From positions 103,864 to 167,863 of the forward strand of contig JBBRLY010000016.1 of assembly GCA_038231155.1 (NCBI GenBank): a stretch of DNA of 64,000 nucleotides. The letters are read 5' to 3'. The notes below the pieces were generated by a model that had not been told where the DNA came from, searched no databases, and saw nothing but the letters and a program-made list of their open reading frames with translations. Shown piece by piece: positions 33,065 to 47,708 of this stretch. Each line of letters opens with the position of its first letter. The stretch's first letter is position 1. The translations under genes were made by a program, and so were the position numbers. The DNA comes from Candidatus Saccharimonadales bacterium (lineage in GTDB: Bacteria > Patescibacteriota > Saccharimonadia > Saccharimonadales > JANWIN01).

Positions 33065-33160
33065 ATCACTAGAGTAAGGCACTAAATTACTAGCTAACTT
33101 ATTGGTAAAGTTAAGACTTAAGTTCATTGATAAACAACAAAAATATATTATCATAACAAA

Positions 33161-33700: not shown

Positions 33701-33768
33701 CTGTTACAGGCAAATATTATTATAACTAAGGTAAGATCTTGTACTTTAGGTCAATGATTTACTGTTAG

Positions 33769-34164: not shown

Positions 34165-34286
34165 CCAACTACAATAATCTCATATTATGGCTTTGGCTAG
34201 AGTTCGAAAACATGATTCTAGCATATGACATTAATGCGCCAATGAATGGATGGTCCGTCGTGAACGTTATCACAAATAGTGTTAGA

Positions 34287-34607
34287 CTATCGATTAATAT
34301 TAGCGGCTATGGCGAATTGCATAAAATAAGCCTCTAGGGTTGTGTCGACATTGTCGGTGGTTATTGACTCGGCAAATTGTTCGCGGGCGTATAGCAACTC
34401 CCTCAGGCCGACACGTTTTTGGGCTGCCCAGAGCTGGGCCGTCTCATCAATCAAATCGAGCCCTCGGTAAAAAGCCGCCAGGCATCTGTCTGGTTTGCCC
34501 TCACGTTTGGCGCTTAAAGCTCGACCGACTTCTAAACCGATATTCCCCATCTGATTAAACATATCCATTTCTGCCCAGCTTGTAGTATTAAATACGTGGC
34601 TAGTCAT
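34287..34607 (-). CDS. hypothetical helical protein (GC-rich gene)
   Basis: Track ORF of 106 aa. 8-nt overlap with the upstream 113-aa ORF. Confidence 0.5.
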   Translation of the reverse strand: MTSHVFNTTSWAEMDMFNQMGNIGLEVGRALSAKREGKPDRCLAAFYRGLDLIDETAQLWAAQKRVGLRELLYAREQFAESITTDNVDTTLEAYFMQFAIAANINR

Positions 34608-34941
34608 GGACCACCTTTTGTACTAGATCTATAATTTGTTGCCGGATCTCCGGATTCAAGACGTCTTTTGAAGCATTTCCTTGGCTGGGTCGTATGTTTA
34701 TCATTGAATCGAACTCTATAAAATCATCAGTCCCGTAGTCTCCTGGATGCAAGTTAATCCCCCATAGGTCGTTCTGCCTGGAGCCATGTTCCATTAAATA
34801 CGCTTCGCCATCAGCATGCATGCCCATGTCAACAATAAAGATACTTTTTGCAATATCAACATCAACTTTTACAAGGGTGCCATACATTTTCTCGGCCATA
34901 GCCGCCAACCCACCTACACTTATTTTCTCTACAACTTTCAT
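34600..34941 (-). CDS. hypothetical protein
   Basis: Track ORF of 113 aa, first gene of a two-gene cassette. Confidence 0.55.
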   Translation of the reverse strand: MKVVEKISVGGLAAMAEKMYGTLVKVDVDIAKSIFIVDMGMHADGEAYLMEHGSRQNDLWGINLHPGDYGTDDFIEFDSMINIRPSQGNASKDVLNPEIRQQIIDLVQKVVHD

Positions 34942-35000
34942 CTAGTGTTTAAGTATAGCAAAACCAAAATATCCTGCGGATAGTCTTTTTACGCTGTTTG

Positions 35001-35010
35001 TACTTGGAGG
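35001..35010. repeat. left copy of 10-bp direct repeat TACTTGGAGG (candidate att core)
   Basis: Identical to 47628-47637, which spans the last 6 nt of tRNA-Lys (CCTCCA on the minus strand) plus 4 flanking nt. Confidence 0.45.
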
Positions 35011-35099
35011 TGCGTGTGCAGTGCTATTGCAACCAAATTACAAGATAATCCAACGATCTTTATTATGGCAATGTCGACTGATACCCAAATTTAACATGT

Positions 35100-37358
35100 T
35101 TAGTTAGTGGGGTCGATTTCAATAACTTCACCCTCAATCACGCCATCATCTTTCTTAATCTTCTCAGCCTCAACATGTCGATAAAGATACATAAATTGTT
35201 CTGCAACGAGGTATTCAAACGTTTTATCTGTATTAAAGTGGCCATCTGGATATTCTATGGCCTGATTCACCTCATCACCGAACTCTTTGGTAAGAGGACC
35301 AACGAACAACCCAGGATCAACTGCGGCAGCGATACTATCATAAGACTCTCGGCGAAAATCTGAACGTATCGGTTTTCCGGTGGTCATTTCATACCCATGA
35401 CCGACATATGCTTGCAAGAACTGTATAGCGAGTTTGGGGTCTTTCTTGAAACTTTCCTCAAGGTATTTCTGAATATCCTTGCTATCGCCCCATTTTTGCC
35501 ATATCCACATTAGGGAGGCAACATCATTGGGGTAGTCGGTTTGTACGTGATGGTTTTTAGTGTATGTCTTGATTCTTGTTGCCAGAATCTTACCAAGTTC
35601 ATGCACTTGATCCTCTGAAATCAGCGGCACAAAATCTGGTTTATCTTTATCATTCTCAGAGTTGACTCTGACCCATTGCAGCAATTGAGCAGCGTAGTTT
35701 ATCGGTGCATTACTGATGAATTTAGTAAGGGTCTCGTTGGCATTATCCACATTTTTCATGAGATGAACGGCAAGTATCGCAGACTGTACGTATGGCGACA
35801 TTGTGTCCCCGAGCAATGATTGTCTTGAACGCATGAGACTTGCTCCATTAGCAACAAGTACCTCGGCGAGAGTTTTGCTCGTCTGTTCAGGAAGTTTCTT
35901 CTCTCTTCGGCGTAACTTAGAAATGATCATGGCAACGTCAGCATCTTTGATCAGAGTCTGAAATATTTTACTGGCCTTTGCCGGTGATGTCTTCGGGTTA
36001 GTTATTGCAGCCAAGAAATCTTCAATTTTACTGTCGGCTATATCCCCGGGAGGGATCCCGTAAGAGAAGTATCGGTTAAAGTATTTATCCGTACACACCC
36101 TCTTTGCTTCTTCCCAATTCGCCTCAAAATCTCCGCCGTATGATGAGCCTCCGAGTGCCCATTCCACTGATGGGAATAATTCCTTAACAATGCTGACTTC
36201 CATCCCAGTAGGCTCGTCCTTGCCAAAGATTTTTCTACGAGTGCTTGTCTTTGCATTCTCATCTCGATCCCCATATGCACCTGATCTCAACACTACCTCT
36301 TTGCTCTTTGCCAGACGCTGATACAACTCTGGGAAGAAGATGCGTAACATATCAACCAGTGCTACATCGGTAAAACTGGCCTCATTTGATAGTCTTTCAA
36401 TAGAGAAGTCTACTGTATTGAGATACCGAACTATTCTTCGTGGCGTATTGAACAGTTTCTCAGCGTCCCTTGAGAAATAGACGGATTGGAATCTAGACAT
36501 GTCATCATCGGTAATATCGAACTTATGCCCAATGATGATTTTGTCCAACTCTTCCGTTAGGTATCTATTGAGCAGTTCCTGATCTACGTTTGGAACATAC
36601 AATGGTAGTTGTACTATTTTATCTATGAAGTTGTCTCCAACGTCGGAGTTGTTGGGATATCGCAATGCTAATGCATCTGCAACAACTTCACGATCAAATG
36701 AGAGTAGATAAGAAATATTACTAAAATGAGCGATATTCTTCACAAGTTTGAATACTTGATGAATCTCGTCGCTATCAAGCCTATCAATATCATCAATCAC
36801 TACAATCACTCGCTGGCCTGATTTAGCGAGTATCTTGTCGACTCGTTCTCTCGTTGAATCAACACTTATGACTTTATCGCTGTGAGCAACGCCAATGCGT
36901 TTTAATAACGAGCCGAGTATTTTGCCTATCAAGCCAGCGGGCGGGAAGAACGTACCTACGACATCCCCGACTGGTCCTGTAATCTCACCGTATCGTTTGA
37001 GTTCCTCAGCAACAACTTCACCGTTTGATCGTAATCTTGCTCCGAGTTTACTTGCTAATGTGCCAAAGAACGCCATATGCAGGCTTTCCGAGTTTGAGAA
37101 AACCCATGGATTGAACTTTATTACCACTGTTTTTTCGTTATATTTCTGATCAATATGCTCAACGGCCATGTTTATGACGGAGGTTTTGCCACTACCCCAC
37201 GACCCATATAGACCAACGGTAATCGATTGAGAATCTGGGACTTTTACTAGCGTTTCAGCTAGGGAGACAGAGAAATCTTTTCGGCCAAATCTATCTTCGT
37301 TAGATCGAGCAATGGGTTCATCTGGGCTTTTCTTGAATGTCTTCATTAGGCATTCCAA
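35100..37358 (-). CDS. KAP-family P-loop NTPase with a large uncharacterised C-terminal region
   Basis: 752 aa (748 if the ATG at 37346 is used). Walker A GLYGSWGSGKTS, FNPW motif, hydrophobic G/P-rich insert (ITGPVGDVVGTFFPPAGLIGKILGSLL), Walker B VIVVIDDIDRLD. Its start overlaps the hsdMS stop. Confidence 0.85.
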   Translation of the reverse strand: MECLMKTFKKSPDEPIARSNEDRFGRKDFSVSLAETLVKVPDSQSITVGLYGSWGSGKTSVINMAVEHIDQKYNEKTVVIKFNPWVFSNSESLHMAFFGTLASKLGARLRSNGEVVAEELKRYGEITGPVGDVVGTFFPPAGLIGKILGSLLKRIGVAHSDKVISVDSTRERVDKILAKSGQRVIVVIDDIDRLDSDEIHQVFKLVKNIAHFSNISYLLSFDREVVADALALRYPNNSDVGDNFIDKIVQLPLYVPNVDQELLNRYLTEELDKIIIGHKFDITDDDMSRFQSVYFSRDAEKLFNTPRRIVRYLNTVDFSIERLSNEASFTDVALVDMLRIFFPELYQRLAKSKEVVLRSGAYGDRDENAKTSTRRKIFGKDEPTGMEVSIVKELFPSVEWALGGSSYGGDFEANWEEAKRVCTDKYFNRYFSYGIPPGDIADSKIEDFLAAITNPKTSPAKASKIFQTLIKDADVAMIISKLRRREKKLPEQTSKTLAEVLVANGASLMRSRQSLLGDTMSPYVQSAILAVHLMKNVDNANETLTKFISNAPINYAAQLLQWVRVNSENDKDKPDFVPLISEDQVHELGKILATRIKTYTKNHHVQTDYPNDVASLMWIWQKWGDSKDIQKYLEESFKKDPKLAIQFLQAYVGHGYEMTTGKPIRSDFRRESYDSIAAAVDPGLFVGPLTKEFGDEVNQAIEYPDGHFNTDKTFEYLVAEQFMYLYRHVEAEKIKKDDGVIEGEVIEIDPTN

Positions 37359-39895
37359 ACCTCGGAAATATAATCTGCGATCTTTTTCTCATAAACAGAA
37401 ACCAATTTTTGGCTTCCCTTTATCAGATCATTTTCAGACTCCAGCTCATCTACTATTTGATGCTGAACGTCTAAAGATGGGAGGGGTATTTCAATATTAA
37501 GCAATTTGGGTTTTGATATATTTTTCATACTTCCACTTGTTCCGTTAGAGAGATCCGAAATCATTCTCCTATATTTCGGTGAGGAAATAACATACTGTAC
37601 GTAACGCATTGAAAGATCATTACCTTTTTTATCTGCTTGCCAAAGTCTGTCGGGCAAATAAAGTTCATTGTAGTCACTGTCAATGTATACACTCGCACCA
37701 ACTAACTCAGGGGTGTTCATTCTACTTATAATAATACTGTCTGTTTTTGGATTAATCTTTGCTCTGTGAAGTTCACTGTCAAGAATTACCTTGTTTTCTC
37801 GGGGGTTGAATGCGCCATATGATACAGCGCTTGTCTTGAGAATTCCGTGTTCGCCATCGCTCATTGGCCGGTTCATAGAATTCACACTAACACCGGCCTC
37901 GAGTTTAACGAACAGTTCATTAAGTTTAACTTTCGGCCACGATGTCTCGAATCTAATTTCCGGCTGATAAGTTTTTAGTATTATTTTTCCTGAGTCAGCA
38001 ATAACTCGATAACTATCTAAGGTTGCCACAATTTCCTTCTGCATTTCTATTGTCGGTAAAGGGATTTTATTGGCAAGAAAATAATCAACTTTGAGCCTTT
38101 TTCTATTTGATGTCCCAATGCTCGAGTCTTCACACAATTGTGTAAACTCAGCAGACTGAACGATGTAATCCAGAAATTTGGGAAAGATTCTGTCCATATT
38201 CGATTCAAAGACTGGAAAATCAGAAGTAACAATTGCCCCATCTAATTCTGATGTTACGATACCAAATGCCCCGTGGCGTGCATCAATTTTGGAAATTATA
38301 AAATCCCCTGCAAATGCAATAAATTGTCTCTTTGTTTTGATATCTTGACCTCGAATTGACTGCCGCAGGATAACACCTTTGCTAAATAATTTGACAGTTA
38401 TTTGCTTGTATTCTTTGGCATCTAACACCTCAACAGTACGGATCTGCGGAATCAGAATATCCTTCAGCTCAACCATTGGCCAACTGTTGCCTCTGGTGGA
38501 TTCAATCCTACTATCACCAATTATTTTGAGTGAGTGTACAGGATCGTTGTAGAGTGTATTCCGATCGATAATTCTGGTTTCAACTGTCAACTTACTGCCC
38601 ATCGATTCGGAATTCTTAAAACATTGAATTATGTTAAGGGCATCAGGAAGATCATTCGCATCAATTGGATTACGTAGCGAGCCCAGATCATAACCATCGC
38701 TTTTTACTTTAACAAACAGCACTTGTTTCGTCTTTGGATCAATCGTTTTGTCGAAAAAGAGAATGCTTGTCTTGGCGGTCTTAGCATATGGATTGAAGAT
38801 ACCGGTTGGAAGGCTCACAACACACCAAAGTCCGGCATCTAACAAAGATTGTCGAATCTTTCCATACGCTGCCTGATCTTTGAATAAAACGCCCTCTGGA
38901 ACAATAACGCCGCATCTACCGGCGGTACTGAGGTGCTTAGTCATATAATTCAAAAAGAGTACCTCTGTGGCACCAGTCCCCATTCGTAAATCCTCTGAGA
39001 CACTAGCTTTATCGACATTTCCAGAGAACGGTGGGTTGGCTAGGATCACATCCCACTTACCTCTATCACCTGTGGTGTCGACAAGTGTATTTTGCCGTTT
39101 GATGCTAGCGTGACTAAGATTGTGTAGATAGAGGTTCATTACGCCGAACTTCACCATATCCTCGTCGCTATCAAACCCAGTAAAAGCGTGATTGAAGATG
39201 AAGTCTCGTTCTTCGCCAGACAATTCATCCATTAAGAATGTACCGTCTTTTTTGAATCGTTCAGAGGTGTACTTGGTACGAAGGTGATTCAACGCCTCAA
39301 CGAGGAATCCGCCAGTCCCACAGGCTGGGTCTAGGATCGTCTCGCCCTTTTCTGGGTCGACCACATCCACCATGAACTTGATTACGTGGCGTGGGGTTCG
39401 GAACTGGCCGTTTGTACCGGCCTGAGCCAACTTAGAAAGTAAATACTCGTACATGTCGCCGAAAATGTCTTTGGAACCGTGCCTTGCGGCGGTATCCAGT
39501 TCAGTAACTAACTTCTCGATTTCATGTACCAATACACGTAAGGTAGGCTTGTCATATATCTTGATGTGGGCGTTGCGGTAGAGCAAAGCCACAGTTTTAT
39601 CGGTAGTCAGTTCCGGCAATTTGCGATACGCTTCCTCGAGTGTGTCGAACAAGATTTCAGCGTTGAGCATCAAAAGGTTGTCCCAACTGTATTTCATCAG
39701 TTCATCTTTGAAGATTGCATCATGATCTGGATTAAGCAATTTTGCCTCTTCATCGTGCTGAGTAAGAGCACGTAGGAACATCAAGTAATTGATCTGCTCG
39801 ATGATTGTTGCATGGCTCGCCACACCAGCCCCAAATAGCCTGTCCATGAGGTTGTCGATCTTGCGATGGAGGCCGGTAGCGTGGAATGGCTGCAT
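37346..39895 (-). CDS. hsdM: type I restriction-modification methyltransferase fused to the specificity subunit (HsdM-HsdS single polypeptide)
   Basis: 849 aa. HsdM N-domain, motif I DPACGTGGF, motif IV NPPF. Two TRD-like halves follow, each ending in the S-subunit conserved helix (KIPLPTIEMQKEIVATL and IEIPLPSLDVQHQIVDEL). Confidence 0.88.
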   Translation of the reverse strand: MQPFHATGLHRKIDNLMDRLFGAGVASHATIIEQINYLMFLRALTQHDEEAKLLNPDHDAIFKDELMKYSWDNLLMLNAEILFDTLEEAYRKLPELTTDKTVALLYRNAHIKIYDKPTLRVLVHEIEKLVTELDTAARHGSKDIFGDMYEYLLSKLAQAGTNGQFRTPRHVIKFMVDVVDPEKGETILDPACGTGGFLVEALNHLRTKYTSERFKKDGTFLMDELSGEERDFIFNHAFTGFDSDEDMVKFGVMNLYLHNLSHASIKRQNTLVDTTGDRGKWDVILANPPFSGNVDKASVSEDLRMGTGATEVLFLNYMTKHLSTAGRCGVIVPEGVLFKDQAAYGKIRQSLLDAGLWCVVSLPTGIFNPYAKTAKTSILFFDKTIDPKTKQVLFVKVKSDGYDLGSLRNPIDANDLPDALNIIQCFKNSESMGSKLTVETRIIDRNTLYNDPVHSLKIIGDSRIESTRGNSWPMVELKDILIPQIRTVEVLDAKEYKQITVKLFSKGVILRQSIRGQDIKTKRQFIAFAGDFIISKIDARHGAFGIVTSELDGAIVTSDFPVFESNMDRIFPKFLDYIVQSAEFTQLCEDSSIGTSNRKRLKVDYFLANKIPLPTIEMQKEIVATLDSYRVIADSGKIILKTYQPEIRFETSWPKVKLNELFVKLEAGVSVNSMNRPMSDGEHGILKTSAVSYGAFNPRENKVILDSELHRAKINPKTDSIIISRMNTPELVGASVYIDSDYNELYLPDRLWQADKKGNDLSMRYVQYVISSPKYRRMISDLSNGTSGSMKNISKPKLLNIEIPLPSLDVQHQIVDELESENDLIKGSQKLVSVYEKKIADYISEVWNA

Positions 39896-39897
39896 AT

Positions 39898-42273
39898 TTA
39901 GACTTTCAACAGTTTATTATTGTGAACATCTGAAACAATTTCTTCGAGTTCATCTTTGCCGAATGTATCTAGCCACTCTCGTACTGAGTAACCCTGGTTG
40001 AATGGCTCACGTTGCAAGAAACTGATGTCGGATGCCTTTTGTAGCGACTTGCGTAATCTGTCGTCTTGTACAACTTCGGTAGCAATCAAATCAACCATCA
40101 ACGCTCGTCGCTGTGTTGCGCCTGGCTTCTTGCCGTATTTATAGATCATGCCTTGTTTCCATTGCTCTAATTGCTCGTCTCGCTCAGGCAAAGACTTTTT
40201 CTTGAGTGCCGACAGCAAGAAGTCTTTTACCGTCGCAATTACTCGGTATGAACTGATCAGACTCTCTTCGTTAAAATAGTGGCTCGGTCGGTTGAGCAGT
40301 TCACTGTTGATGAGTTCGATCAATTCTTCAGTCTTATCTTCATTATCGATCATCGTTGCGACTTCGGGATGGCTCGTCACAAACTGCTGGACTGCTGACG
40401 TCCACTCGTCTTTGTACATCTCACGATCAACCTTGTCGCCGTCGGGTCCAACTTCGATAAGGTTACGTGTGCCGATCATATCGGCCTGATGAGAGACGAC
40501 CGGTTCGGTCTTAACCACTTCTTCGTTATTCGATTCGGAAGTCTGCTCAGACGATTGTATCGAGTGAGCGGCCTCTTTGTCAGCCTTGTTTCGGTCAATT
40601 GGCTTCTTGAGCGGTGCTTCCCAATCGTAATTTTCCTCAAAGTATTCACATACGCCGCAAAAATCGAACATCACGAACTGCTTCTTGTCGATTTCCTTGC
40701 ACAGGCGAGTCCCACGGCCTTTAATCTGTTGGTACAGAGTTGGCTCGAATACTGGACGAGCAAGCACAATGTTCTGCACTTCGGGAGCGTCAAAGCCGGT
40801 TGTGAGCATATCGACCGAGACGGCAATACGAGGCAGTTGGTTATCGGGGTTCTTGAAGTCTCGAGCAATCTCACTCGCACCCTGTACGCTACTGGTGATC
40901 GTTCTGGCAAATCGCCCATTATATTCGGGGTGCATTGCGTTTAGCACTTTTTCAAGCTCAAGAGCATGTCGCTGTGACACGGCAAAGACTATGGTCTTAC
41001 CAATCTCACCTCTGTTATTTCGCTCAGCGTACTCTAGGAACTCGGCCATCATCGCCTTATTACGCTCAGGCAAATAAACTTTCTTTTCAAGGTCACGAAT
41101 TTTGTAATTCTCACCCTCGACATCCTCTTCGGTCAGCACCAGGCCATCTTCGCTCAAAGCGGCTTGCGTGAGTATAGTATTCATTTTGTGAAGTTTGGGC
41201 GGAATGAGGAATTCATCTTTAACACCGTCCTGAATGGTATAGCGGAATGTGGCATTGCCGTCCTCACAACCAAAGTAACGATAGGTATCTCGCTGGATAC
41301 GGGCTTCAACAGCACGAGGATCGTTGATTTCCAACTTCTCTAAATCAAGATTCTTGAGGAAATCACGAGGTGTGGCGGTTAAACCGATCTTGGTTGCACC
41401 GACAAAGTAATCCATTGCCGCTCTCGCTTGCGGACTGTAAATACTGCGATGTGCCTCGTCATGGATAATCAGGTCGAAATAACCCGACGAAAAGATGTCT
41501 TTACCATGTAGAGCAAGCGATTGAATCGTCGCAATCACGACATTTGCCCCTGTTAAGTTCTTTCGAGACGACCCCCAATACGTGGCAACGCTTGAGAGGC
41601 CACCCAGGAGACGTTCAAACGATCCTTTAGTCTGTGATGCTAGCTCCACTCGATCCACAACAAATAGCACCGTCTGGGCTTGATGGGTACGCAGAAACTT
41701 ACTGATAATCAGGCCCGCTAGAACGGTCTTGCCTGTACCGGTTGCCATTTCGAGCAAGAAACTACGTTTGCCCTCGTCATAACGCTTTGCAATGCTCTGA
41801 TATGCCGCTATCTGGTATGGCCGAAGTTCGAGTGAGTTATCAATGTCTTTGAAGTAATCTTTTTCGACCGATTTCGTCGATAGAAGTTCGACCACTCCAA
41901 CACGTCCAACATTTCGCCTGCGCTCCAAATCTTCACGAGAGAAGAATGCCGGCACGGAAATAGCATCACCTGAAGCAATATCCCAAAAATAAACCACATG
42001 ATCGTTGGCGAGGTAGATATATTCGATCTGACCCTTGTATTGAGTCTCGGCGTAGTTCAATGCCTGTTGCTTGGCGGTATAGGGATCAATCTCAGGGGCT
42101 TTGGCTTCAATGAGTGCGATTGCTTTGCCTGAACGATCTTTGAGCACATAGTCTGCTCGACCGACGCTCCCGTGATCTTCAAACACGACTTGGCTTTGAT
42201 CTTCAATATCCCAACCAGCCTCACGTAATTTGCGATCGATGATGACTCTTGAATATGCTTCTTTTTGATTCAC
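39898..42273 (-). CDS. hsdR: type I restriction enzyme R subunit (EcoEI/type IB-like architecture)
   Basis: 791 aa. N-terminal PD-(D/E)xK (GRADYVLKD...IALIEAKAP), SF2 helicase motifs MATGTGKT, DEAH, TATP, QQIKGRGTR, acidic linker, C-terminal helical domain. GTG start. Confidence 0.9.
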   Translation of the reverse strand: MNQKEAYSRVIIDRKLREAGWDIEDQSQVVFEDHGSVGRADYVLKDRSGKAIALIEAKAPEIDPYTAKQQALNYAETQYKGQIEYIYLANDHVVYFWDIASGDAISVPAFFSREDLERRRNVGRVGVVELLSTKSVEKDYFKDIDNSLELRPYQIAAYQSIAKRYDEGKRSFLLEMATGTGKTVLAGLIISKFLRTHQAQTVLFVVDRVELASQTKGSFERLLGGLSSVATYWGSSRKNLTGANVVIATIQSLALHGKDIFSSGYFDLIIHDEAHRSIYSPQARAAMDYFVGATKIGLTATPRDFLKNLDLEKLEINDPRAVEARIQRDTYRYFGCEDGNATFRYTIQDGVKDEFLIPPKLHKMNTILTQAALSEDGLVLTEEDVEGENYKIRDLEKKVYLPERNKAMMAEFLEYAERNNRGEIGKTIVFAVSQRHALELEKVLNAMHPEYNGRFARTITSSVQGASEIARDFKNPDNQLPRIAVSVDMLTTGFDAPEVQNIVLARPVFEPTLYQQIKGRGTRLCKEIDKKQFVMFDFCGVCEYFEENYDWEAPLKKPIDRNKADKEAAHSIQSSEQTSESNNEEVVKTEPVVSHQADMIGTRNLIEVGPDGDKVDREMYKDEWTSAVQQFVTSHPEVATMIDNEDKTEELIELINSELLNRPSHYFNEESLISSYRVIATVKDFLLSALKKKSLPERDEQLEQWKQGMIYKYGKKPGATQRRALMVDLIATEVVQDDRLRKSLQKASDISFLQREPFNQGYSVREWLDTFGKDELEEIVSDVHNNKLLKV

Positions 42274-42382
42274 GTTTTATCCATGTCTAAATATAAAATT
42301 TGCTACCTCAAATCAGGTAGCCCACCCCCAGATTTTACCACGGGAAAGCACTTTGAAGTAGGAGGTTGTACAATAGAGTCAT

Positions 42383-42817
42383 ATGATAGGTCAAGCAATA
42401 ATCAATTCGCATACGTTGGATACCGCTAAAAACGGTAACGCTGTTGGCCGTCCCAAGGCGATAACCTCCGAAGTCGTCCATCAATTAATAGACTCACTTC
42501 GGCTGGGTTCTGACGTTACGGCTGCCTGTATTCTATCTGGTATCAGCACCTCGACTTATTACAACGAACTTGCGAGGAACAAGCGATTTATGGACAAAAT
42601 GACCATTGCTCAGCAAGAAACATCGCTTTATGCCAATACGCTTATTGCAAAAGCTATTAGACAAGGAGATATGAAGACGGTCAGATGGTATCTTGATCGC
42701 CAAGATCGACTTGCATACCACGCACAGCAATCGGCCAAAAATCGAAATACGAAAAAGATCATCATTACTGAGACTCATCAAAACACCCATTCTGTCAGTA
42801 TGGAAGTTGATCAGTAA
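42383..42817 (+). CDS. HTH DNA-binding protein (phage terminase-small-subunit/resolvase-HTH-like)
   Basis: 144 aa. Contains GRPKAITSEVVHQLIDSLRLGSDVTAACILSGISTSTYYN. Confidence 0.45.
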   Translation: MIGQAIINSHTLDTAKNGNAVGRPKAITSEVVHQLIDSLRLGSDVTAACILSGISTSTYYNELARNKRFMDKMTIAQQETSLYANTLIAKAIRQGDMKTVRWYLDRQDRLAYHAQQSAKNRNTKKIIITETHQNTHSVSMEVDQ

Positions 42818-42860
42818 GCACCCATTTCTCTTACGCAGTAAACGCTTTACTCAAGCCATT

Positions 42861-42890
42861 TTGAGATAGCCCACCAGAGAGTGTTATAAT
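42861..42890 (+). promoter_or_regulatory. strong sigma70-type promoter with extended -10 (TTGAGA-18 nt-TGtTATAAT)
   Basis: -35 TTGAGA at 42861-42866. TG at 42882-42883 followed by TATAAT at 42885-42890. Confidence 0.55.
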
Positions 42891-42896
42891 TTCGAT

Positions 42897-43113
42897 AACG
42901 CCATTCTTGGCGTTGGAACAATTTAGCAATGACCTAAACTCACCTCGGTGAGCATGGTTATAAATCCAGAAAAGCGTACTAAGCTCGTCGTTTAGGCATC
43001 TTTTCTGGTTGCACATCGAATGGTGTGCAGGGGTCGCAAGATCCCGCTTAGCGGCGAGCTTCGTGTGTCTCGCCGCCAGCATCAATTAGATGCCGAGTTA
43101 GGAGGCGGCGATC
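42897..43113 (+). ncRNA. candidate structured leader or ncRNA (seven consecutive hairpins) upstream of the SHOCT-domain gene
   Basis: Stems read directly from sequence: 42897-42914, 42939-42952, 42966-43008 (9 bp), 43010-43029, 43030-43045 (GCAA loop), 43051-43076 (8 bp GC-rich), 43079-43093. There is also alternative pairing with the SD-start region. Confidence 0.4.
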
Positions 43114-43686
43114 ATGGGATTACTCGACAGTATTAAAGATGGATATACCAAGAATCGGGAAGTGGCCGCTGAACGCAAAGATGTGAGGGGTGAGAAACTC
43201 GCACATGCACAATGCATTTATTTGGGTGGATATGAGGTTAAGCATAAAGCCGGTGGTAGCGTTACGTTTTTCGAGAATCAAATTGAGTTTAGTACCCTTG
43301 GTAAAGCCAAGTTTACGCTAACCAAGACGTTAGTGCGTGAAGTGGCCGTTGAGGGCAAGGACGAAGTTCATAGTCGTGTCACCGTCACACGCTTGCTCGT
43401 TCTCGGCATATTTGCTTTCGGGGCAAGGAAAAAGAACGAGGTCAAAGAATCTTATATCACGATAGTCTTGAATGATGGTCGAGAGGTTGTTTTACAGGTC
43501 AATAACATCGCCCCCGTGCAACTCAAGGCCAAATTTTCAAAGGTGTACGCTGCATACAACCAAAGCAAGCCACTGCAGCAAGGTTCAGCCACAGACGAAC
43601 TTGAGCGGCTGGCAGCACTCAAATCCAAGGGCGTAATAACCCAAGCCGAGTTTGATGCAAAGAAACGTCAACTACTGGGCTTATAG
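43114..43686 (+). CDS. protein with C-terminal SHOCT domain
   Basis: 190 aa. The C-terminus ELERLAALKSKGVITQAEFDAKKRQLLGL matches the SHOCT pattern. Good RBS AGGAGG 8 nt upstream. Confidence 0.6.
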   Translation: MGLLDSIKDGYTKNREVAAERKDVRGEKLAHAQCIYLGGYEVKHKAGGSVTFFENQIEFSTLGKAKFTLTKTLVREVAVEGKDEVHSRVTVTRLLVLGIFAFGARKKNEVKESYITIVLNDGREVVLQVNNIAPVQLKAKFSKVYAAYNQSKPLQQGSATDELERLAALKSKGVITQAEFDAKKRQLLGL

Positions 43687-43792
43687 CAATAGTTACAGCT
43701 ACAGCTTGATTCTCTGCAAATTGTTGGCCGTAGCCGTTAAACGGTAAACTGTATTTAGTACAAGTTCCTAGTTAACAGAATGAAGATGCAAA

Positions 43793-44413
43793 ATGAATAT
43801 CCGAGAATACACAGCACAAGCGGCAAAAGCACTATTAGCCAATCCTGAGTTTCAATCTGCTGTGGCTCAGACTAGAAACAACAACCACATAGCAGATTCT
43901 GCGCTTGCTGACGATGCCGCAATCGAGACTTGGTATAAGGATCGAGTTTACGGCAAGACGAATGCCGAGACGCCTCTGGATGATGCTGTGGCTGACATCA
44001 TCTTTCAATTCCAATTAAGTCCCGACTGGCGGCATAGCATCAAGCGTTACATACTGCTTAATAATCCCATGGATATGCAACTGCCGATGCACATTGAGGT
44101 AGGCGTAATAGAAGATGAACAAACCCGCCAATGGCGTGTTGTTGCCTACATACCCGAATACGCTTCCCAGCGAGATATTAAGGCGGCGTTGCCAGAAATA
44201 ACCAAGTGGCAAGAGAAAATACGAGCCAAGTCACTCAAGCGGCAGCCGGTATTTACCAATGAACTTGCCAAAGAAGCCTACGCTATATATCAGCGTGTAA
44301 GGAGTTATCAGAAAACGGCCACTGAACTCGGCGAAAAGTCACAGAGGAAGATTAGCCAAGAACAAGCCAGAGATTTAATCCGCAACTACAAAAAGCGGGT
44401 TGGTATCAATTGA
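43793..44413 (+). CDS. hypothetical island protein
   Basis: Track ORF of 206 aa. No motif recognised. Confidence 0.5.
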   Translation: MNIREYTAQAAKALLANPEFQSAVAQTRNNNHIADSALADDAAIETWYKDRVYGKTNAETPLDDAVADIIFQFQLSPDWRHSIKRYILLNNPMDMQLPMHIEVGVIEDEQTRQWRVVAYIPEYASQRDIKAALPEITKWQEKIRAKSLKRQPVFTNELAKEAYAIYQRVRSYQKTATELGEKSQRKISQEQARDLIRNYKKRVGIN

Positions 44414-44465
44414 ACCCCAAATAGTACCAATTATTCCTAAACGTTTATTTTGAGATTGTGTAGTC

Positions 44466-44729
44466 ATGATGATGACTGCATTAGATGAAGATGAGGCAAA
44501 GAAGCCATACACGACCAGCGATTTAGGTTGTATTACGGCTTTGGTATCCTCCGGTCTTCACATTCAGTCGTTAGATAAATCCAACCCCAGGCGGGTTGTT
44601 TTTGTTTTTGATCAGTCGGCGGCACTTTTGAAACTGGTCGATTCATATTGGAATGGGTCGCTTAATGTGGATGCTAAAACCTACTTTGAAACTCAAAAAT
44701 GGTTGAAATCCAGAATATACAACGGCTAA
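44466..44729 (+). CDS. hypothetical small island protein
   Basis: Track ORF of 87 aa. Confidence 0.45.
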   Translation: MMMTALDEDEAKKPYTTSDLGCITALVSSGLHIQSLDKSNPRRVVFVFDQSAALLKLVDSYWNGSLNVDAKTYFETQKWLKSRIYNG

Positions 44730-44731
44730 TT

Positions 44732-44950
44732 ATGGAATTTACTACCGCCGACATTAAACAGTTTCAGGGGCTTTACGTTAAGTATTTCAATATCAAGCTC
44801 ACCGATAGTATGGCTCGTGTGAAGTTGATGATGCTGGTTAGGCAAATGGAAATAGCATACCAGCCGATAACCCAAGAGCAGTTTGACAGGCTCAACAATG
44901 AAGATGGAAATGCACAAAATGAGCAGAGCAGATCAACAATCAATCGCTAA
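44732..44950 (+). CDS. hypothetical small island protein
   Basis: Track ORF 44699-44950 trimmed to the ATG at 44732, 2 nt after the preceding TAA. Confidence 0.4.
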   Translation: MEFTTADIKQFQGLYVKYFNIKLTDSMARVKLMMLVRQMEIAYQPITQEQFDRLNNEDGNAQNEQSRSTINR

Positions 44951-45425
44951 ATACTTCAAAAAGAAGCCCGTCCTTTATATTGGTGGTCTGGGGCAGGTAT
45001 TCTCGATGCCAGCCGGTATACTGCTAAGCCAACTGCTCTATTGGCATGGTCAGGGCGGGCGTAAAGACGGCTACATCTATAAGACTGCTGATGAGATTCG
45101 ATCTGAACTTGGCATGAGCCGCACAAGCCAAGAGACTGCGATCAAGCAATTAAGAGAGTGCGGCGTTATTGATTACAAGTTGGCTCAAGTTCCCGCCCGA
45201 CGGCATTTTAGAGTCAACCTTCAACGGTTACACGAATTGCTTCCCAGTTTGAAGGAAACCAGCAAACTGATTTATCCAAATCCGGCAAACTACTATGTTA
45301 CAAACAGCCAATCTATTACAAAGATTACCAGAGAGAATACATTAAAGAATACACCAATTGGGGATAAAAAGTCTTTCTTTGAAGCAAGAGCTGCCTTAAC
45401 GAGAAAGATGGGTAAGCCTCCTTGA
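44883..45425 (+). CDS. hypothetical winged-helix protein (replication-organiser-like); real start probably near 44910-44919
   Basis: 180 aa. TADEIRSELGMSRTSQETAIKQLRECGVIDYK resembles a wHTH. Confidence 0.45.
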   Translation: MTGSTMKMEMHKMSRADQQSIAKYFKKKPVLYIGGLGQVFSMPAGILLSQLLYWHGQGGRKDGYIYKTADEIRSELGMSRTSQETAIKQLRECGVIDYKLAQVPARRHFRVNLQRLHELLPSLKETSKLIYPNPANYYVTNSQSITKITRENTLKNTPIGDKKSFFEARAALTRKMGKPP

Positions 45426-45471
45426 TATTGCCATTAACGCTATATGGATATTTAAGAATAAGGAGAACAAT

Positions 45472-45852
45472 ATGGATGTGAGAAATTCTGATGCGGTTAA
45501 TGATTTGTTATATGAAGGGTTGGGGAAACTGTCAGGCGGGTGGAAGTATCAAATGGAGTCCCAACAACCCAAGCACTGCTCGTGGGTAACCTTGGATGCA
45601 GAGTTACAAAATTGTTGCGTGGATGCCGGGTCCTTTATCGGATATAAAGATGTGGGAGAAATGAAGTCTAAGGTCGTTGAACTTGTACAGGTAGCGATGA
45701 GCGAGGAGTTACTTGAAATGGTAAGAACAGGCGAAATTCTGCATTTGAGTTTCCGTATAGGCCCTAGTGCCATATCTGGATATAACTACAACGAAGAACA
45801 TGGCATCGAAGAGTTTGAGTATTCAGATAAAAATGAAAAGGCTGTACAATAA
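45472..45852 (+). CDS. hypothetical island protein
   Basis: Track ORF of 126 aa with RBS AAGGAGAA upstream. Confidence 0.5.
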   Translation: MDVRNSDAVNDLLYEGLGKLSGGWKYQMESQQPKHCSWVTLDAELQNCCVDAGSFIGYKDVGEMKSKVVELVQVAMSEELLEMVRTGEILHLSFRIGPSAISGYNYNEEHGIEEFEYSDKNEKAVQ

Positions 45853-45856
45853 CAAC

Positions 45857-45948
45857 GTTGACCCAGTTATGTTCCAAGAAGCTTTTTTATGCTCTTCTGC
45901 CTGTTCTGGGGCGGTTCAGCCAGAAGCCTTCTTGGTGACTGGGTCAAC
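45857..45948. repeat. 92-nt imperfect palindrome between the cargo module and the recombinase gene
   Basis: Perfect 11-bp arms GTTGACCCAGT (45857-45867) and ACTGGGTCAAC (45938-45948). Inner 8-bp arms CCAAGAAG (45874-45881) and CTTCTTGG (45928-45935). Confidence 0.6.
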
Positions 45949-45987
45949 CTGAACCGTCCCTTTTGGGACTCTAAGGAGGGCATAAAA

Positions 45988-47673
45988 ATGAAAAATAGCA
46001 AAGGTTTGCGTTATATCGCTTACGTTCGTAAATCATCTGAAGATAAAGAGAAGCAGGAACTTTCTCATATCAGTCAGATTGAGAATATTAAAGACAAGTT
46101 CGGCCACCTCAACATAGTTAAGTGGATGGAACCAGAAAGCCGTTCGGCCTTTACGCCTGGTCGACCAATCTTTAATGAAATGATGGCAATGATTGAAAAG
46201 GGTGAGGCAGACGCTATTGTTGCGTGGCACCCGAACCGTTTATCTCGAAATGAAATTGATAGTGGTGAACTCACCTATTTATTACGAAGTAAATTGAAAG
46301 ATTTACAGTTTTGCTCTTATAAGTTTGATAACAACCCCGAAGGTATCATGATGTTGCAAATTGTCATGAATCAGGGGCAATACCAGTCATCCAAACAAGG
46401 TGTTGATGTAAAGCGTGGCATGGAAACAAAGGCTGATACCGGTGAAAAGCCAGGTCGTGTCATGCCAGGGTATATGAAGCAAACTGTCTTGGACGAGTAC
46501 GGCCAGCCGGTTATTCATGGCAAGAAGATAATCACAATGACAGTCAAAGATCCCGAACGTTACGATACGGTCAAACAAATGTGGAAGTGGTATTTGTACG
46601 AGCGGCAGTCGCCTCAACAAATATGGAAAAGGGTCAACGAGGAATTACATTATAAGACCGTTCCATACAAGAACAGAAAAGACGGCAGTATTAAGGGTGG
46701 CGAACCAATGAACAAAAGTATGGTTTACCGAATATTTCAGAATCCGTTTTATGCCGGCCAATACCTCCATAACGGCGTCCTTCGCAAGGGCAACTACCAA
46801 GACATCAAAATGATCACTTGGGACGAGTATAAGTTGGCACAGGAACTATTGGGTGCAAGAGCGAACCAACGTGTCGGCACGTTTGAATATGCCTTTGCCA
46901 GCATGATCAAATGTGGTGTCTGTGATTGCCAAATACAAGCTCGCCACCGTACCAAGTTCGTTAAGAGCGAGAATAAATTCAAGACGTATGTGTACTATTA
47001 CTGTTCACGCAAAAGCGAAAAACGACCATGCAATCAAAACGATTACACATTGGTTGAGGACGTTGAGCGTGACATTGATATGGAGTTACGCAAATACACC
47101 ATCATTCCCGAATTCAAAGACATGGCATTAAAACTGTTGAGCCGCAATCACAAGATTGAGGCCAGTGAGCGTACAAGTATTTATGACAAACTGCAAAAGC
47201 AACGCAAGACCATGCAGAGTGAACTTGATAGCCTTATCGGCTACCTGCATCGTGAGTTGATAGATGAAGACGACTACAAGCGTCAACGCAACTTACTCAA
47301 GGTTGAGCTGAACAGTATTGATGAACAACTACGCAATACCGAGAGACGTGCCGAGAATAATATGGAACTCAATGAGAAAGCATTCAACTTCGCCGTATAT
47401 GCCCGATCACACTTTGAGAATGGTGACGTCCGAACCAAGAGAGATACGTTGCGGACATTGGGCCAAAGCCTGATACTCAAAGACAATACGCTGTACATCG
47501 AGCCAAACGAATGGTTGGTGCCGATTTGCAATGCTTACCCTGAACTTGAGAAACGCTACATCTGGGCTCGAACCAACAAAAAAGCCACCCTACAGATGAA
47601 AGAGGCGGCTTTAATGGAAATTATGAATACTTGGAGGGCCCACTGGGACTCGAACCCAGGACACCCTGCTTAA
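45988..47673 (+). CDS. large serine recombinase (integrase)
   Basis: 561 aa from the ATG at 45988 (RBS AAGGAGGG). Resolvase catalytic domain YVRKSS...NRLSRN, recombinase domain, zinc ribbon CGVCDC...YYCSRK...C, C-terminal coiled coil. The last 14 codons are antisense to tRNA-Lys. Confidence 0.9.
   Translation: MKNSKGLRYIAYVRKSSEDKEKQELSHISQIENIKDKFGHLNIVKWMEPESRSAFTPGRPIFNEMMAMIEKGEADAIVAWHPNRLSRNEIDSGELTYLLRSKLKDLQFCSYKFDNNPEGIMMLQIVMNQGQYQSSKQGVDVKRGMETKADTGEKPGRVMPGYMKQTVLDEYGQPVIHGKKIITMTVKDPERYDTVKQMWKWYLYERQSPQQIWKRVNEELHYKTVPYKNRKDGSIKGGEPMNKSMVYRIFQNPFYAGQYLHNGVLRKGNYQDIKMITWDEYKLAQELLGARANQRVGTFEYAFASMIKCGVCDCQIQARHRTKFVKSENKFKTYVYYYCSRKSEKRPCNQNDYTLVEDVERDIDMELRKYTIIPEFKDMALKLLSRNHKIEASERTSIYDKLQKQRKTMQSELDSLIGYLHRELIDEDDYKRQRNLLKVELNSIDEQLRNTERRAENNMELNEKAFNFAVYARSHFENGDVRTKRDTLRTLGQSLILKDNTLYIEPNEWLVPICNAYPELEKRYIWARTNKKATLQMKEAALMEIMNTWRAHWDSNPGHPA
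47628..47637. repeat. right copy of 10-bp direct repeat TACTTGGAGG (candidate att core)
   Basis: Overlaps the 3' terminal CCTCCA of tRNA-Lys. Identical to 35001-35010. Confidence 0.45.
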
Positions 47674-47708
47674 AAGGCAGGTGCTCTAACCGGCTGAGCT
47701 ATGGGCCC
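47632..47708 (-). tRNA. tRNA-Lys(TTT)
   Basis: 77 nt. Acceptor GGGCCCA/TGGGCCC, anticodon stem CCTGC/GCAGG, loop CT-TTT-AA, T arm CTGGG-TTCGAGT-CCCAG, encoded CCA. Confidence 0.9.

What the first reader, a model, noticed from the sequence alone, without database searches (positions are those of the whole stretch)
35100..42273. Tightly coupled hsdR - fused hsdM/S - KAP NTPase operon: candidate undescribed RM-linked defence system
Seen: three co-directional minus-strand genes are packed almost without spacing. The hsdR TAA at 39900-39898 lies 2 nt from the hsdMS ATG at 39895. The hsdMS TAA at 37348-37346 shares a base with a KAP ATG at 37346 (TAATG), or overlaps by 13 nt if the ATG at 37358 is used. 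The third gene encodes a 750-aa KAP-family P-loop NTPase with Walker A GSWGSGKTS, FNPW, a hydrophobic insert, and Walker B VVIDDIDRLD. Its C-terminal region of about 420 aa has no motif I recognise. Established: a type I RM enzyme needs only R, M and S. The KAP family is a distinct P-loop clade, often with membrane insertions in the NTPase domain. There is precedent for an NTPase embedded in a type I hsd locus acting as a second-line suicide module, namely the PrrC anticodon nuclease within the EcoprrI locus. Inference: the KAP protein may sense or back up the RM complex, or regulate it. If so, the three genes on a mobile island in a CPR-like host form a composite system not described as such, to my knowledge.
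Basis: partly seen in the sequence, partly recalled or inferred. Interest (0 to 1): 0.8.

Follow-up and report, generated by a model that had tools for sequence, protein, structure and literature searches.

The report
Restriction operon carrying a PifA-like gene
A type I restriction-modification operon on a mobile island of a likely candidate-phyla-radiation (CPR) bacterium has a phage-exclusion gene of the known PifA family attached to its end; the pairing is one of several interchangeable add-ons seen at that spot rather than a new dedicated three-gene system.

Summary
Three minus-strand genes are packed as described: hsdR 39898-42273, a fused hsdM/S 37346-39895 and a KAP NTPase 35100-37346, with junctions TAAatATG and TAATG.

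- The KAP protein is a full-length homologue of PifA, the F-plasmid T7-exclusion protein (PADLOC PifA 4e-90; profile comparison 99.9%, 636 columns).
- Seven distinct loci of its closest clade (50-58% identity) carry it alone; five show it beside a serine recombinase, a SHOCT gene or both, and none has hsd genes.
- In the wider family no type I gene is adjacent.
- The same hsdR-hsdMS cassette elsewhere (HsdR 62-96% identical) carries something different right after hsdMS: CBASS, an Old nuclease, a Schlafen-like pair, an unknown membrane protein, or nothing.
- DNA similarity to one such locus ends exactly at the hsdMS stop.

The trio is therefore two catalogued defence modules transcribed together. 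They sit beside a tRNA-Lys gene on what looks like a serine-recombinase island. This is an appended version of the known "defence genes embedded in RM operons" pattern.

The more interesting points are the variable slot after hsdMS and the natural HsdM-HsdS fusion family. A guard role for the KAP protein is not excluded.

The parts
39898..42273 (-). hsdR: type I restriction subunit, 791 aa, GTG start. N-terminal PD-(D/E)xK-type nuclease region about 41980-42195, ResIII/DEAD motor 41365-41832, Helicase_C 40705-41016, EcoEI_R_C tail 39919-40419.
   Evidence: Pfam ResIII 3.3e-36, Helicase_C, EcoEI_R_C, HSDR_N. PADLOC REase_I 6e-67. NCBIfam EcoAI/FtnUII family 1e-86, 291.9 bits, below the 550-bit equivalog cut-off. 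96% aa identity to HsdR in L152 and L153.
37346..39895 (-). hsdMS: one ORF fusing the methyltransferase with a complete specificity subunit, 849 aa. N6_Mtase 38600-39475, target-recognition domain 1 38012-38488, domain 2 37379-37942.
   Evidence: Pfam N6_Mtase 1.1e-54, Methylase_S in 2 stretches, HsdM_N. PADLOC MTase_I 7.6e-108 and Specificity_I 4.7e-46 and 1.2e-40. DPACGTGGF and NPPF motifs are visible in the translation. All five related cassettes also have the fusion.
35100..37346 (-). PifA-family KAP P-loop NTPase, 748 aa. NTPase domain 36408-37283, moderately hydrophobic disordered insert 36870-36971, all-helical C-terminal region 35148-36407.
   Evidence: Pfam KAP_NTPase 1.9e-50. PADLOC PifA 4.2e-90 over residues 6-659. 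hhalign against an F-type plasmid 'phage T7 exclusion protein': probability 99.9, E 5.6e-37, 636 columns. AF2 model pLDDT 84.3.
39896..39900 (-). hsdR/hsdMS junction, TAA-AT-ATG (2-nt spacer).
   Evidence: Read directly. The same type of junction occurs in L152, L153, L157 and L161.
37344..37348 (-). hsdMS/KAP junction, TAATG (stop and start share one base). A GAGG lies 13-16 nt upstream of the ATG, inside the conserved ...ISEVW... C-terminus of HsdMS. This is the point where similarity to L153 ends.
   Evidence: Read directly. L153 has the same ...ISEVW..TAATG junction followed by an unrelated gene. blastn similarity to L153 ends at window 37344.
42274..42340 (-). Upstream leader of hsdR, conserved with the related cassettes. 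This is the 5' edge of the shared hsdR-hsdMS block and the presumed promoter region.
   Evidence: blastn similarity to L152 and L153 begins at window 42340 and 42312 respectively. No convincing promoter was called.
42383..45852 (+). Island backbone of small genes, divergent from hsdR: o144 (42383-42817), SHOCT protein (43114-43686), o206 (43793-44413), DUF5659 (44466-44729) and others.
   Evidence: Pfam SHOCT 2.5e-9. DUF5659 from the precomputed hit in L001. tblastn homologues of o144, SHOCT and o206 occur in the KAP-only elements L144, L145, L148, L150 and L155, and of o206 in L152.
45889..47673 (+). Large serine recombinase, 594 aa: the presumed integrase of the island.
   Evidence: Pfam Resolvase 3.2e-17, Recombinase 5.2e-7, Zn_ribbon_recom 1.5e-5. 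Serine recombinases also flank the KAP-only and RM-plus-other-cargo elements.
47632..47708 (-). tRNA-Lys(UUU), whose 3' end overlaps the end of the recombinase ORF. It lies at the recombinase-side edge of the island.
   Evidence: ARAGORN; sequence read. No flanking direct repeat was found.

Best explanation
The locus holds two separable defence modules, both of known kinds, that are transcribed together.

Module 1 is a type I restriction-modification enzyme of an EcoAI-related (type IB-like) lineage. Its methyltransferase and specificity subunits are one polypeptide (HsdMS). It methylates host DNA, and together with HsdR it translocates and cuts unmodified DNA.

Module 2 is a stand-alone PifA-family KAP NTPase. 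By analogy with F-plasmid PifA, its helical C-terminal region would sense a phage protein. Its P-loop NTPase would then drive a change at the membrane through the hydrophobic insert, stopping infection by permeabilising or depolarising the cell.

The KAP gene sits in a variable position directly after hsdMS. In related elements that position holds other, mostly abortive-infection-type genes. It is translationally coupled to hsdMS (TAATG, with a GAGG inside the conserved HsdMS C-terminus), so both layers are expressed and move together. The carrier appears to be an integrative island with a serine recombinase next to tRNA-Lys.

Shown: gene identities, the coupling, PifA homology, non-conservation of the pairing, and the swap boundary. 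Inferred: activity of both modules, the PifA-like mechanism, and independence of function.
For: Identity of the parts.

PifA homology:
- PADLOC PifA 4.2e-90 covering profile positions 5-677 of 720.
- BLASTP to an F-type PifA: 24% identity, E 6e-29 over residues 5-342.
- Profile comparison: probability 99.9, 636 aligned columns, query 7-676 against PifA 11-709 of 741.
- The family is very large, with 10,692 representatives at E<=1e-30, and the best 150 listed matches span nearly the whole profile.

Stand-alone in the closest relatives (50-58% identity):
- L144/145, L146, L148 and L150 have the KAP gene divergent from a serine recombinase (with a SHOCT gene in L144/145 and L150) and no hsd genes.
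- L154, L155 and L084 also lack hsd genes.
- The SHOCT, o206 and o144 genes are homologous between those elements and the window.

The cassette with other cargo:
- L152 (HsdR 96% identical): CBASS cyclase 6.5e-86 plus a 2TM/Cap15 effector 7.5e-45.
- L153 (96%): a 505-aa protein with hydrophobic N-terminal segments and no family hit.
- L157-160 (79%): SLFN_AlbA_2 protein plus a 356-aa protein.
- L162-167 (62%): Old-family ATPase/TOPRIM, 1.4e-45.
- L161 (78%): nothing co-oriented.

Sharp mosaic:
- DNA identity of 82-87% runs from about 40-67 bp upstream of hsdR to about codon 320 of hsdMS.
- With L153 it resumes in the last 720 nt of hsdMS and stops at the stop codon.
- GC content is 0.47 (hsdR), 0.47 (hsdMS 5' part), 0.39 (rest of hsdMS) and 0.43 (KAP).

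Literature:
- Embedded defence genes are frequent in type I RM, BREX and DISARM (10.1101/2024.01.29.577857; PMC11411939).
- PifA is reported to sense T7 proteins and trigger membrane depolarisation (PMC8594841).
- KAP NTPases with uncharacterised C-terminal regions protect against phage and need Walker B (PMC13552941).
- An engineered HsdM-HsdS fusion works with HsdR (PMC3510504).
Against: - No experiment exists. Independence of the two modules is inferred from gene neighbourhoods only.
- The samples are small: 7 distinct close-clade KAP loci and 5 distinct related cassettes.
- Every cargo gene found is tightly coupled to hsdMS. Some functional dependence on the RM enzyme could explain that equally well.
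- Identity to F PifA is low (24% in the NTPase half, and detectable only by profile in the C-terminal half), so trigger and effector mechanism may differ.
- One tested KAP defence protein did not behave as abortive infection (PMC13552941).
- The insert is not a confident transmembrane segment.
- pifC, the regulator that precedes pifA in the F-type plasmid examined, did not appear in the Pfam and PADLOC scans of the neighbouring genes; most of those gave no hit.
Confidence: 0.7

Rival explanations
1. Guard model. The KAP protein, like the other genes found in this position, monitors the RM complex. It fires when a phage anti-restriction protein (Ocr-like or Stp-like) disables the enzyme, as PrrC does for EcoprrI.
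For: - Translational coupling of every cargo gene to hsdMS.
- The cargo genes that could be classified belong to families usually described as abortive-infection or suicide effectors: PifA-like, CBASS with a 2TM effector, Old. The L153 cargo is an unclassified protein with hydrophobic N-terminal segments.
- T7, the classic PifA target, also carries the type I inhibitor Ocr (PMC8594841).
- PrrC is almost always embedded in type I RM.
- Other PifA-like subclades are stably embedded in DISARM-like clusters.
Against: - The nearest KAP relatives occur without any RM gene.
- CBASS and Old are known to work on their own (my own background knowledge).
- The third gene changes while HsdR stays 96% identical, so no co-evolved interface is indicated.
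- There is no PrrC-like nuclease domain and no PrrC hit.
Confidence: 0.12
2. The KAP NTPase mainly serves the mobile element, for example by excluding competing elements or stabilising the island. It would not be a phage defence, and its place after hsdMS would be incidental cargo packing.
For: - PifA-like genes ride on F-type plasmids, other plasmids and serine-recombinase islands, and on contigs classed as viral.
- Authors have questioned whether phage exclusion is PifA's primary role (PMC8594841; PMC13552941).
Against: - Family members lie inside or beside many bona fide defence systems: DISARM-like, type IIG, Lamassu LmuB, IetS, Gabija.
- Several KAP proteins with uncharacterised C-terminal regions protected against phage experimentally.
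Confidence: 0.1
3. The KAP protein regulates the RM enzyme, for example through restriction alleviation, assembly or membrane localisation of the complex.
For: - Operon position and coupling.
- KAP NTPases were proposed to regulate assembly of other protein complexes (Aravind et al. 2004, as quoted in 10.1101/2022.08.21.504612, and in PMC13552941).
Against: - One related cassette lacks any third gene, and four others have unrelated genes there.
- Close KAP relatives have no RM partner.
Confidence: 0.03
4. One or both modules are inactive remnants carried along on the island.
For: None specific. The HsdMS fusion with two target-recognition domains and no separate hsdM raises a stoichiometry question: classical enzymes use two M subunits per S, and the purified engineered fusion needed extra M in vitro.
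Against: - All three ORFs are intact and full length with their catalytic motifs.
- Walker A and Walker B core residues are invariant across 35 KAP homologues.
- The fused MS arrangement is conserved in six loci.
- The engineered fusion restricted in vivo with HsdR alone.
Confidence: 0.05

Closest known systems
PifA of the F plasmid (phage T7 exclusion protein; 'Pif' in PADLOC)
   Same: - Similar length (748 vs 741 aa) and architecture: N-terminal KAP P-loop NTPase with an insert between Walker A and B, then a long helical C-terminal region.
- Homology is detectable over almost the whole length.
- Both are carried on a mobile element and are the last gene of a tightly coupled operon.
   Different: - Only 24% identity in the NTPase half, and profile-level similarity beyond that.
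- The upstream gene is hsdMS, not the repressor pifC.
- The host is a likely CPR bacterium.
- Trigger and effect are untested.
Defence genes embedded in type I RM operons (PrrC in EcoprrI, RloF in Campylobacter, TgvAB in V. cholerae VPI-2; 'guilt-by-embedding' of Payne et al. 2024)
   Same: - A second, mechanistically different defence gene sits in the same operon as a type I RM system.
- The inserted cargo varies between related operons.
   Different: - Here the cargo is appended after the last RM gene rather than placed between hsd genes, because M and S are fused and R comes first.
- The cargo is a PifA-family KAP NTPase, not a nuclease of the PrrC or GmrSD type.
- 'PifA' does not occur anywhere in the Payne et al. 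preprint or its held supplements; 'KAP' is absent from its main text and occurs in one supplementary table as weak KAP_NTPase domain hits.
Engineered 'Type IMS' EcoKI HsdM-HsdS fusion (Roberts et al. 2012, PMC3510504)
   Same: M fused in frame to a full two-domain S subunit, working with a separate HsdR.
   Different: - The window's fusion is natural and belongs to a family found in six related loci. HsdR relatives are numerous among CPR MAGs.
- A single-domain variant of 680 aa also exists (L152).
Serine-recombinase-linked defence cargo (PMC13552941)
   Same: Defence genes, including KAP NTPases with uncharacterised C-terminal regions, Schlafen-domain proteins and others, sit next to a serine recombinase.
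   Different: - That work used small serine recombinases, mostly in Firmicutes and gut metagenomes.
- Here the recombinase is a large one (594 aa, with Recombinase and zinc-ribbon domains) next to a tRNA gene.
RADAR RdrA and other STAND-like or KAP-like defence ATPases (QatA, Tmn)
   Same: - P-loop ATPase followed by helical domains.
- RdrA is the best solved structural match (E 7e-7).
- QatA models match the Walker A region.
   Different: - TM-score is only about 0.3.
- QatA scores 65.6 bits against a 600-bit cut-off and matches only residues 32-118.
- No tmn model appears among the PADLOC hits, and none of the neighbouring genes scanned matched a qatBCD or rdrB model.

Membership tests
KAP family P-loop NTPase (Pfam PF07693) | Match to the family model above the gathering score | tested here: met
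   172.2 bits against a cut-off of 20, E 1.9e-50, residues 22-313 on profile positions 1-287 of 293.
KAP family P-loop NTPase (Pfam PF07693) | Walker A and Walker B, with a hydrophobic or transmembrane insertion between them | tested here: inconclusive
   Walker A GSWGSGKTS and Walker B VVIDDIDRLD are present, and their core residues are invariant in 35 homologues. The insert at residues 122-159 is the most hydrophobic segment, but Kyte-Doolittle reaches only 1.37 and its pLDDT is below 50. Membrane insertion is not established.
PifA (F-plasmid phage exclusion, PADLOC PDLC02361) | Full-length homology to PifA, covering both the NTPase and the C-terminal region | tested here: met
   PADLOC PifA 4.2e-90, residues 6-659 on profile positions 5-677 of 720. 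hhalign probability 99.9, E 5.6e-37, 636 columns against a 741-aa 'phage T7 exclusion protein'.
PifA (F-plasmid phage exclusion, PADLOC PDLC02361) | pifC-pifA operon, with the repressor immediately upstream | tested here: not met
   In the F-type plasmid, pifC ends 1 nt before pifA. Here the upstream gene is hsdMS, and the flanking ORFs that were scanned gave no regulator-type hit. No PifC model was searched specifically.
PifA (F-plasmid phage exclusion, PADLOC PDLC02361) | Abortive exclusion of phage triggered by specific phage proteins, with membrane permeability changes | not testable with these tools
   Known for F PifA from the literature (PMC8594841; Schmitt et al. 1991, cited). It needs phage assays.
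Type I restriction-modification system | HsdR with a nuclease region, an SF2 translocase motor and a helicase C domain | tested here: met
   HSDR_N 3e-6, ResIII 3.3e-36, Helicase_C 1.4e-7. PADLOC REase_I 6.2e-67. The ATGTGKT and DEAH motifs are visible.
Type I restriction-modification system | Gamma-class N6-adenine methyltransferase (HsdM) and a specificity subunit with two target-recognition domains | tested here: met
   N6_Mtase 1.1e-54. Methylase_S in two stretches, with PADLOC Specificity_I hits at 470-628 and 652-839. They are fused in one ORF instead of being two genes.
Type IB (EcoAI/EcoEI) family | Equivalog-level match of HsdR to the EcoAI family model | tested here: not met
   NF046051 scores 291.9 bits against a cut-off of 550. 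The EcoEI_R_C tail is present (29 bits against 24). The protein is related to this family but is not a member by the curated threshold.
PrrC-type anticodon nuclease embedded in type I RM | ABC-ATPase-like N-domain plus a C-terminal anticodon-nuclease domain, located between hsd genes | tested here: not met
   No PrrC model is among the 8 PADLOC hits at E<=0.01. The C-terminal region is all-helical PifA-type. The gene is appended after hsdMS, not embedded.
Qat system (QatA) | Equivalog match to QatA, with qatBCD neighbours | tested here: not met
   NF041923 scores 65.6 bits against a cut-off of 600 and matches only residues 32-118. None of the neighbouring genes scanned gave a Qat hit.
Defence gene embedded in a host defence system (Payne et al. 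2024) | Located between core genes of the host system, with variable content among related host systems | tested here: inconclusive
   Variable content is shown: five different states in six related cassettes. The position, however, is after the last core gene, so it is 'appended' rather than 'embedded' in the strict sense.

The most novel reading that the evidence does not exclude
The hsdR-hsdMS cassette of these CPR-type islands could be a dedicated docking platform. Its conserved HsdMS C-terminus (...ISEVW, with an in-frame GAGG and a TAATG junction) would act as a recombination and translation-coupling joint that captures interchangeable suicide effectors (PifA-like KAP, CBASS, Old, Schlafen-like, an unknown membrane protein). 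The RM complex would license or trigger whichever effector is installed, for instance when phage anti-restriction proteins disable it. That would be a general 'RM-guarded abortive module' design rather than mere co-location.
Probability: 0.12. Interest if true: 0.7.

Novelty: new variant of a known kind. Interest (0 to 1): 0.4.

Why it matters
The case shows how a reasonable 'new composite system' call resolves into two known modules once neighbourhoods of both partners are compared.

Three leads remain worth following:
- A natural HsdM-HsdS fusion ('type IMS') family. It had previously been made by engineering as a proposed evolutionary intermediate. I have not checked REBASE for natural examples.
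- A sharply bounded, translationally coupled position after hsdMS that holds different genes in related loci, and from which uncharacterised cargo (a 505-aa membrane protein; a Schlafen-like pair) can be nominated as defence candidates.
- Evidence that PifA-family KAP NTPases, a family of more than 10,000 sequence clusters whose mechanism is still unknown, are repeatedly recruited into other defence operons.

Defence in CPR bacteria is little studied, so a functional test here would add information.

Tried and rejected
- **Promoter and terminator scans over 34800-42500:** counts no higher than in shuffled sequence. They say nothing about an internal promoter for the KAP gene.
- **Search for att-like direct repeats flanking the island (31000-48500):** only short chance-level repeats. 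Island ends are therefore not defined on the ruv side.
- **Metagenome scan with the KAP protein:** 3 loci, only one of them close (L084, a 4-kb contig).
- **Viral-contig scan with HsdR:** nothing.
- **Viral-contig scan with the KAP profile:** 57 loci, all distant (at most 30% identity over comparable lengths) and none next to type I genes.
- **PDB sequence search with the family profile:** no hit.
- **Foldseek against PDB:** only weak global matches, to RdrA and Orc1/Cdc6 at TM about 0.3, so no effector fold could be assigned to the C-terminal region.
- **afdb50 structure library:** not available.
- **Identities considered and rejected for the KAP protein:** PrrC-like, QatA and Tmn.
- **'The wider KAP family is type I-linked':** considered and rejected.
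- **Aravind et al. 2004 (PMC416466):** could not be read. It is quoted only through papers that cite it.
Full report
**1. Observation**

The junctions read TAA-AT-ATG between hsdR and hsdMS and TAATG between hsdMS and the third gene.

The alternative upstream start at 37358 is TTG, not ATG. Close homologues align from the first residue of the ATG-37346 product, so the overlapping TAATG start is the likely one.

Pfam, PADLOC and NCBIfam confirm the following:
- an HsdR with a nuclease region, ResIII motor, Helicase_C and EcoEI_R_C tail;
- an HsdM (N6_Mtase 1e-54) fused in frame to a complete specificity subunit with two target-recognition domains;
- a KAP NTPase (1.9e-50).

All catalytic motifs are intact. 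No other R, M, S or KAP gene occurs in the window.

**2. What the third gene is**

The PADLOC PifA model matches at 4.2e-90 across residues 6-659.

An F-type E. coli plasmid carries the annotated pifC and 'phage T7 exclusion protein' pair. That 741-aa protein aligns with the window protein at 24% identity over residues 5-342 (E 6e-29). Against a 35-sequence profile of the window protein's family it aligns over 636 columns, query 7-676 against PifA 11-709, with probability 99.9.

The 'unrecognised' C-terminal 420 aa is therefore the conserved C-terminal region of the PifA family. An AlphaFold model (pLDDT 84.3, pTM 0.71) shows it as all-helical, and the insert at 126-159 as disordered. The insert is only moderately hydrophobic.

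The nearest solved structure is the RADAR ATPase RdrA, and only weakly (TM about 0.3). No solved structure matches by sequence.

The family is very large, with 10,692 cluster representatives at E<=1e-30, and the best 150 listed matches span nearly the whole profile.

**3. Is the KAP gene linked to type I RM?**

*Close clade (46-58% identity, mostly unnamed metagenomic proteins; the one informative source name is Saccharimonadales).* In L144/145, L146, L148 and L150 the gene stands alone and is divergently transcribed from a serine recombinase, with a SHOCT gene between them in L144/145 and L150. There are no hsd genes. L154, L155 and L084 also lack them. The SHOCT, o206 and o144 genes of the window's island have homologues in those elements. 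These are the same kind of element, with or without the RM pair.

*Wider family (24-33% identity).*
- In 80 species-representative genomes and 59 viral or metagenome loci, phmmer with two different type I families finds type I genes within 10 kb in only 3-4 loci. None is adjacent.
- No type I model was among the PADLOC matches listed for the 73 immediate upstream neighbours.
- Two annotated plasmid examples are solo genes among other defence genes.

**4. What does the RM cassette carry elsewhere?**

HsdR proteins 96% identical to the window's occur on two other contigs.
- L152: hsdR, hsdMS (680 aa, one target-recognition domain), a CBASS cyclase and a Cap15-type 2TM effector.
- L153: hsdR, hsdMS (872 aa) and a 505-aa protein with hydrophobic N-terminal segments and no family match.

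More distant cassettes:
- 79% identity, L157-160: a SLFN_AlbA_2 protein plus a 356-aa protein after hsdMS. This cassette also sits next to a yebC-ruvCAB cluster and a serine recombinase.
- 78% identity, L161: no co-oriented third gene.
- 62% identity, L162-167: an Old-family ATPase/TOPRIM nuclease that overlaps hsdMS by 20 nt.

Every cargo gene is tightly coupled to hsdMS.

blastn places the shared DNA from 40-67 bp upstream of hsdR to about codon 320 of hsdMS. With L153, similarity resumes in the last 720 nt of hsdMS and ends at its stop codon. Both loci then read ...ISEVW..TAATG followed by unrelated genes. GC content changes at the same points.

The position after hsdMS is thus a variable cargo slot, and the PifA-like gene is one occupant.

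**5. Context**

The island runs from the operon through small divergent genes to a 594-aa large serine recombinase. The end of the recombinase ORF overlaps tRNA-Lys(UUU) at 47632-47708. No att repeats were found.

The other flank holds yebC-ruvCAB.

Those HsdR relatives that carry a source name are nearly all from CPR lineages: Berkelbacteria, Shapirobacteria, Saccharibacteria, Levybacteria and Peribacterales. One 96%-identical copy is labelled Aquirhabdus in a MAG. The window's own organism was not identified directly.

**6. Mechanism**

The best-supported reading is two independent layers expressed as one transcript: restriction of unmodified DNA, plus a PifA-type sensor-effector.

For F PifA the literature reports sensing of T7 gp1.2 and gp10 and cell death by membrane depolarisation (PMC8594841). 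For other KAP proteins with uncharacterised C-terminal regions, Walker B and the C-terminal region are both needed for defence, and one such protein was not abortive (PMC13552941).

The engineered EcoKI M-S fusion restricts with HsdR alone in vivo (PMC3510504), so the natural fusion is plausibly active.

A guard relationship of the PrrC type is not excluded, but the non-conserved pairing does not favour it.

**7. Comparison and novelty**

Defence genes embedded in type I RM, BREX and DISARM operons are an established pattern (10.1101/2024.01.29.577857; PMC11411939).

This locus is an appended variant of that pattern, in a fused-MS cassette, with a PifA-family occupant. 'PifA' does not occur in that preprint or its held supplements. 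'KAP' occurs there only as weak domain hits in one supplementary table.

Within the wider PifA-like family, two subclades are stably tied to other systems:
- four taxa have the gene between DrmMI and further DISARM-like genes, and those KAP proteins are 69-77% identical to each other;
- three Bacteroidota loci have it directly after IetS, at 62-89% identity to each other.

The family is therefore a recurrent add-on to defence operons, but the window's own clade is usually solo.

**8. Verdict**

- The 'undescribed composite RM-KAP system' is not supported as a dedicated system.
- The locus is best filed as a new variant of a known kind.
- Interest is moderate and rests mainly on the cargo slot and the natural M-S fusion family.

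Noticed in passing
window 37346-39895; L152:5216-7258, L153:6981-9599, L157:10396-12924, L161:9613-12210, L162:8385-10964: A natural HsdM-HsdS fusion is conserved in all six related cassettes, with a C-terminus of the form ...(E/Q)(V/L)W. It comes in two-domain forms (842-872 aa) and a one-domain form (680 aa). This architecture was previously built by engineering as a proposed evolutionary intermediate ('Type IMS'). HsdR relatives are numerous in CPR MAGs.
   Followed up: partly
L153:9599-11116: A 505-aa protein with hydrophobic N-terminal segments, coupled to hsdMS by TAATG in the same slot as the KAP gene. It has no Pfam or PADLOC match and is a candidate uncharacterised defence gene.
   Followed up: partly
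L157:12928-14662 (also L158-L160): A SLFN_AlbA_2 protein (223 aa) overlapping a 356-aa protein with no family match, in the slot after hsdMS. RelB/YafQ and HicB/PIN toxin-antitoxin pairs follow. This is a candidate two-gene defence module.
   Followed up: no
L055:9878-12121, L061:9989-12127, L068:9989-12127, L069:9947-11842: A subclade of PifA-like KAP genes (69-77% identical to each other) sits directly after DrmMI. In L061 the surrounding genes were confirmed as a DISARM-like cluster: SNF2 DrmD/DrmA-like, DrmMI, KAP, type II REase-like, DrmD. The four loci come from four different Proteobacteria or MAGs. This is a stable embedded arrangement, unlike the window's.
   Followed up: partly
L049:9989-12154, L054:2743-4983, L058:9989-12151: Another PifA-like subclade (62-89% identical) lies 13-19 nt after, or overlapping, an IetS-type gene in Bacteroidota genomes. 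L045 has one 14 nt after Lamassu LmuB. L050 has one after a type IIG-like methyltransferase, with a GajA homologue about 0.5 kb downstream.
   Followed up: partly
window 42383-42817 (+): A 144-aa ORF divergent from hsdR, with only weak Sf6-terminase-small-like and DUF5681 hits. It has homologues in 6 loci (5 distinct) of the close KAP clade, usually convergent and abutting the 3' end of the KAP gene (L144, L145, L150, L155). It may be an element regulator or excision factor, or a partner of the KAP protein. Why it lies on the other side of the operon here is unexplained.
   Followed up: partly
window 47632-47708 and 45889-47673: tRNA-Lys(UUU) overlaps the last 42 nt of the serine recombinase ORF on the opposite strand. 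This suggests integration at or into the tRNA gene, but no att repeat was found.
   Followed up: partly
window 29277-32084; L157:1048-4701: In both the window and the relative with 79%-identical HsdR, the island lies next to the yebC-ruvC-ruvA-ruvB cluster but in opposite orientation relative to it. This may be a shared insertion region in related genomes.
   Followed up: no
L161:13303-14644: About 1.1 kb downstream of the cassette that lacks a third gene sit a DUF3892 protein and a metallo-beta-lactamase-fold protein matching the PADLOC candidate PDC-M48B (1.6e-75). A convergent M78 peptidase/HTH pair lies between them and the cassette.
   Followed up: no
L153 (BAAJVC010000043.1): A 12-kb contig binned as Aquirhabdus sp. 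(Gammaproteobacteria) carries an hsdR 96% identical in protein to the window's CPR-type gene. Either the contig is mis-binned or the cassette was transferred very recently between phyla.
   Followed up: no
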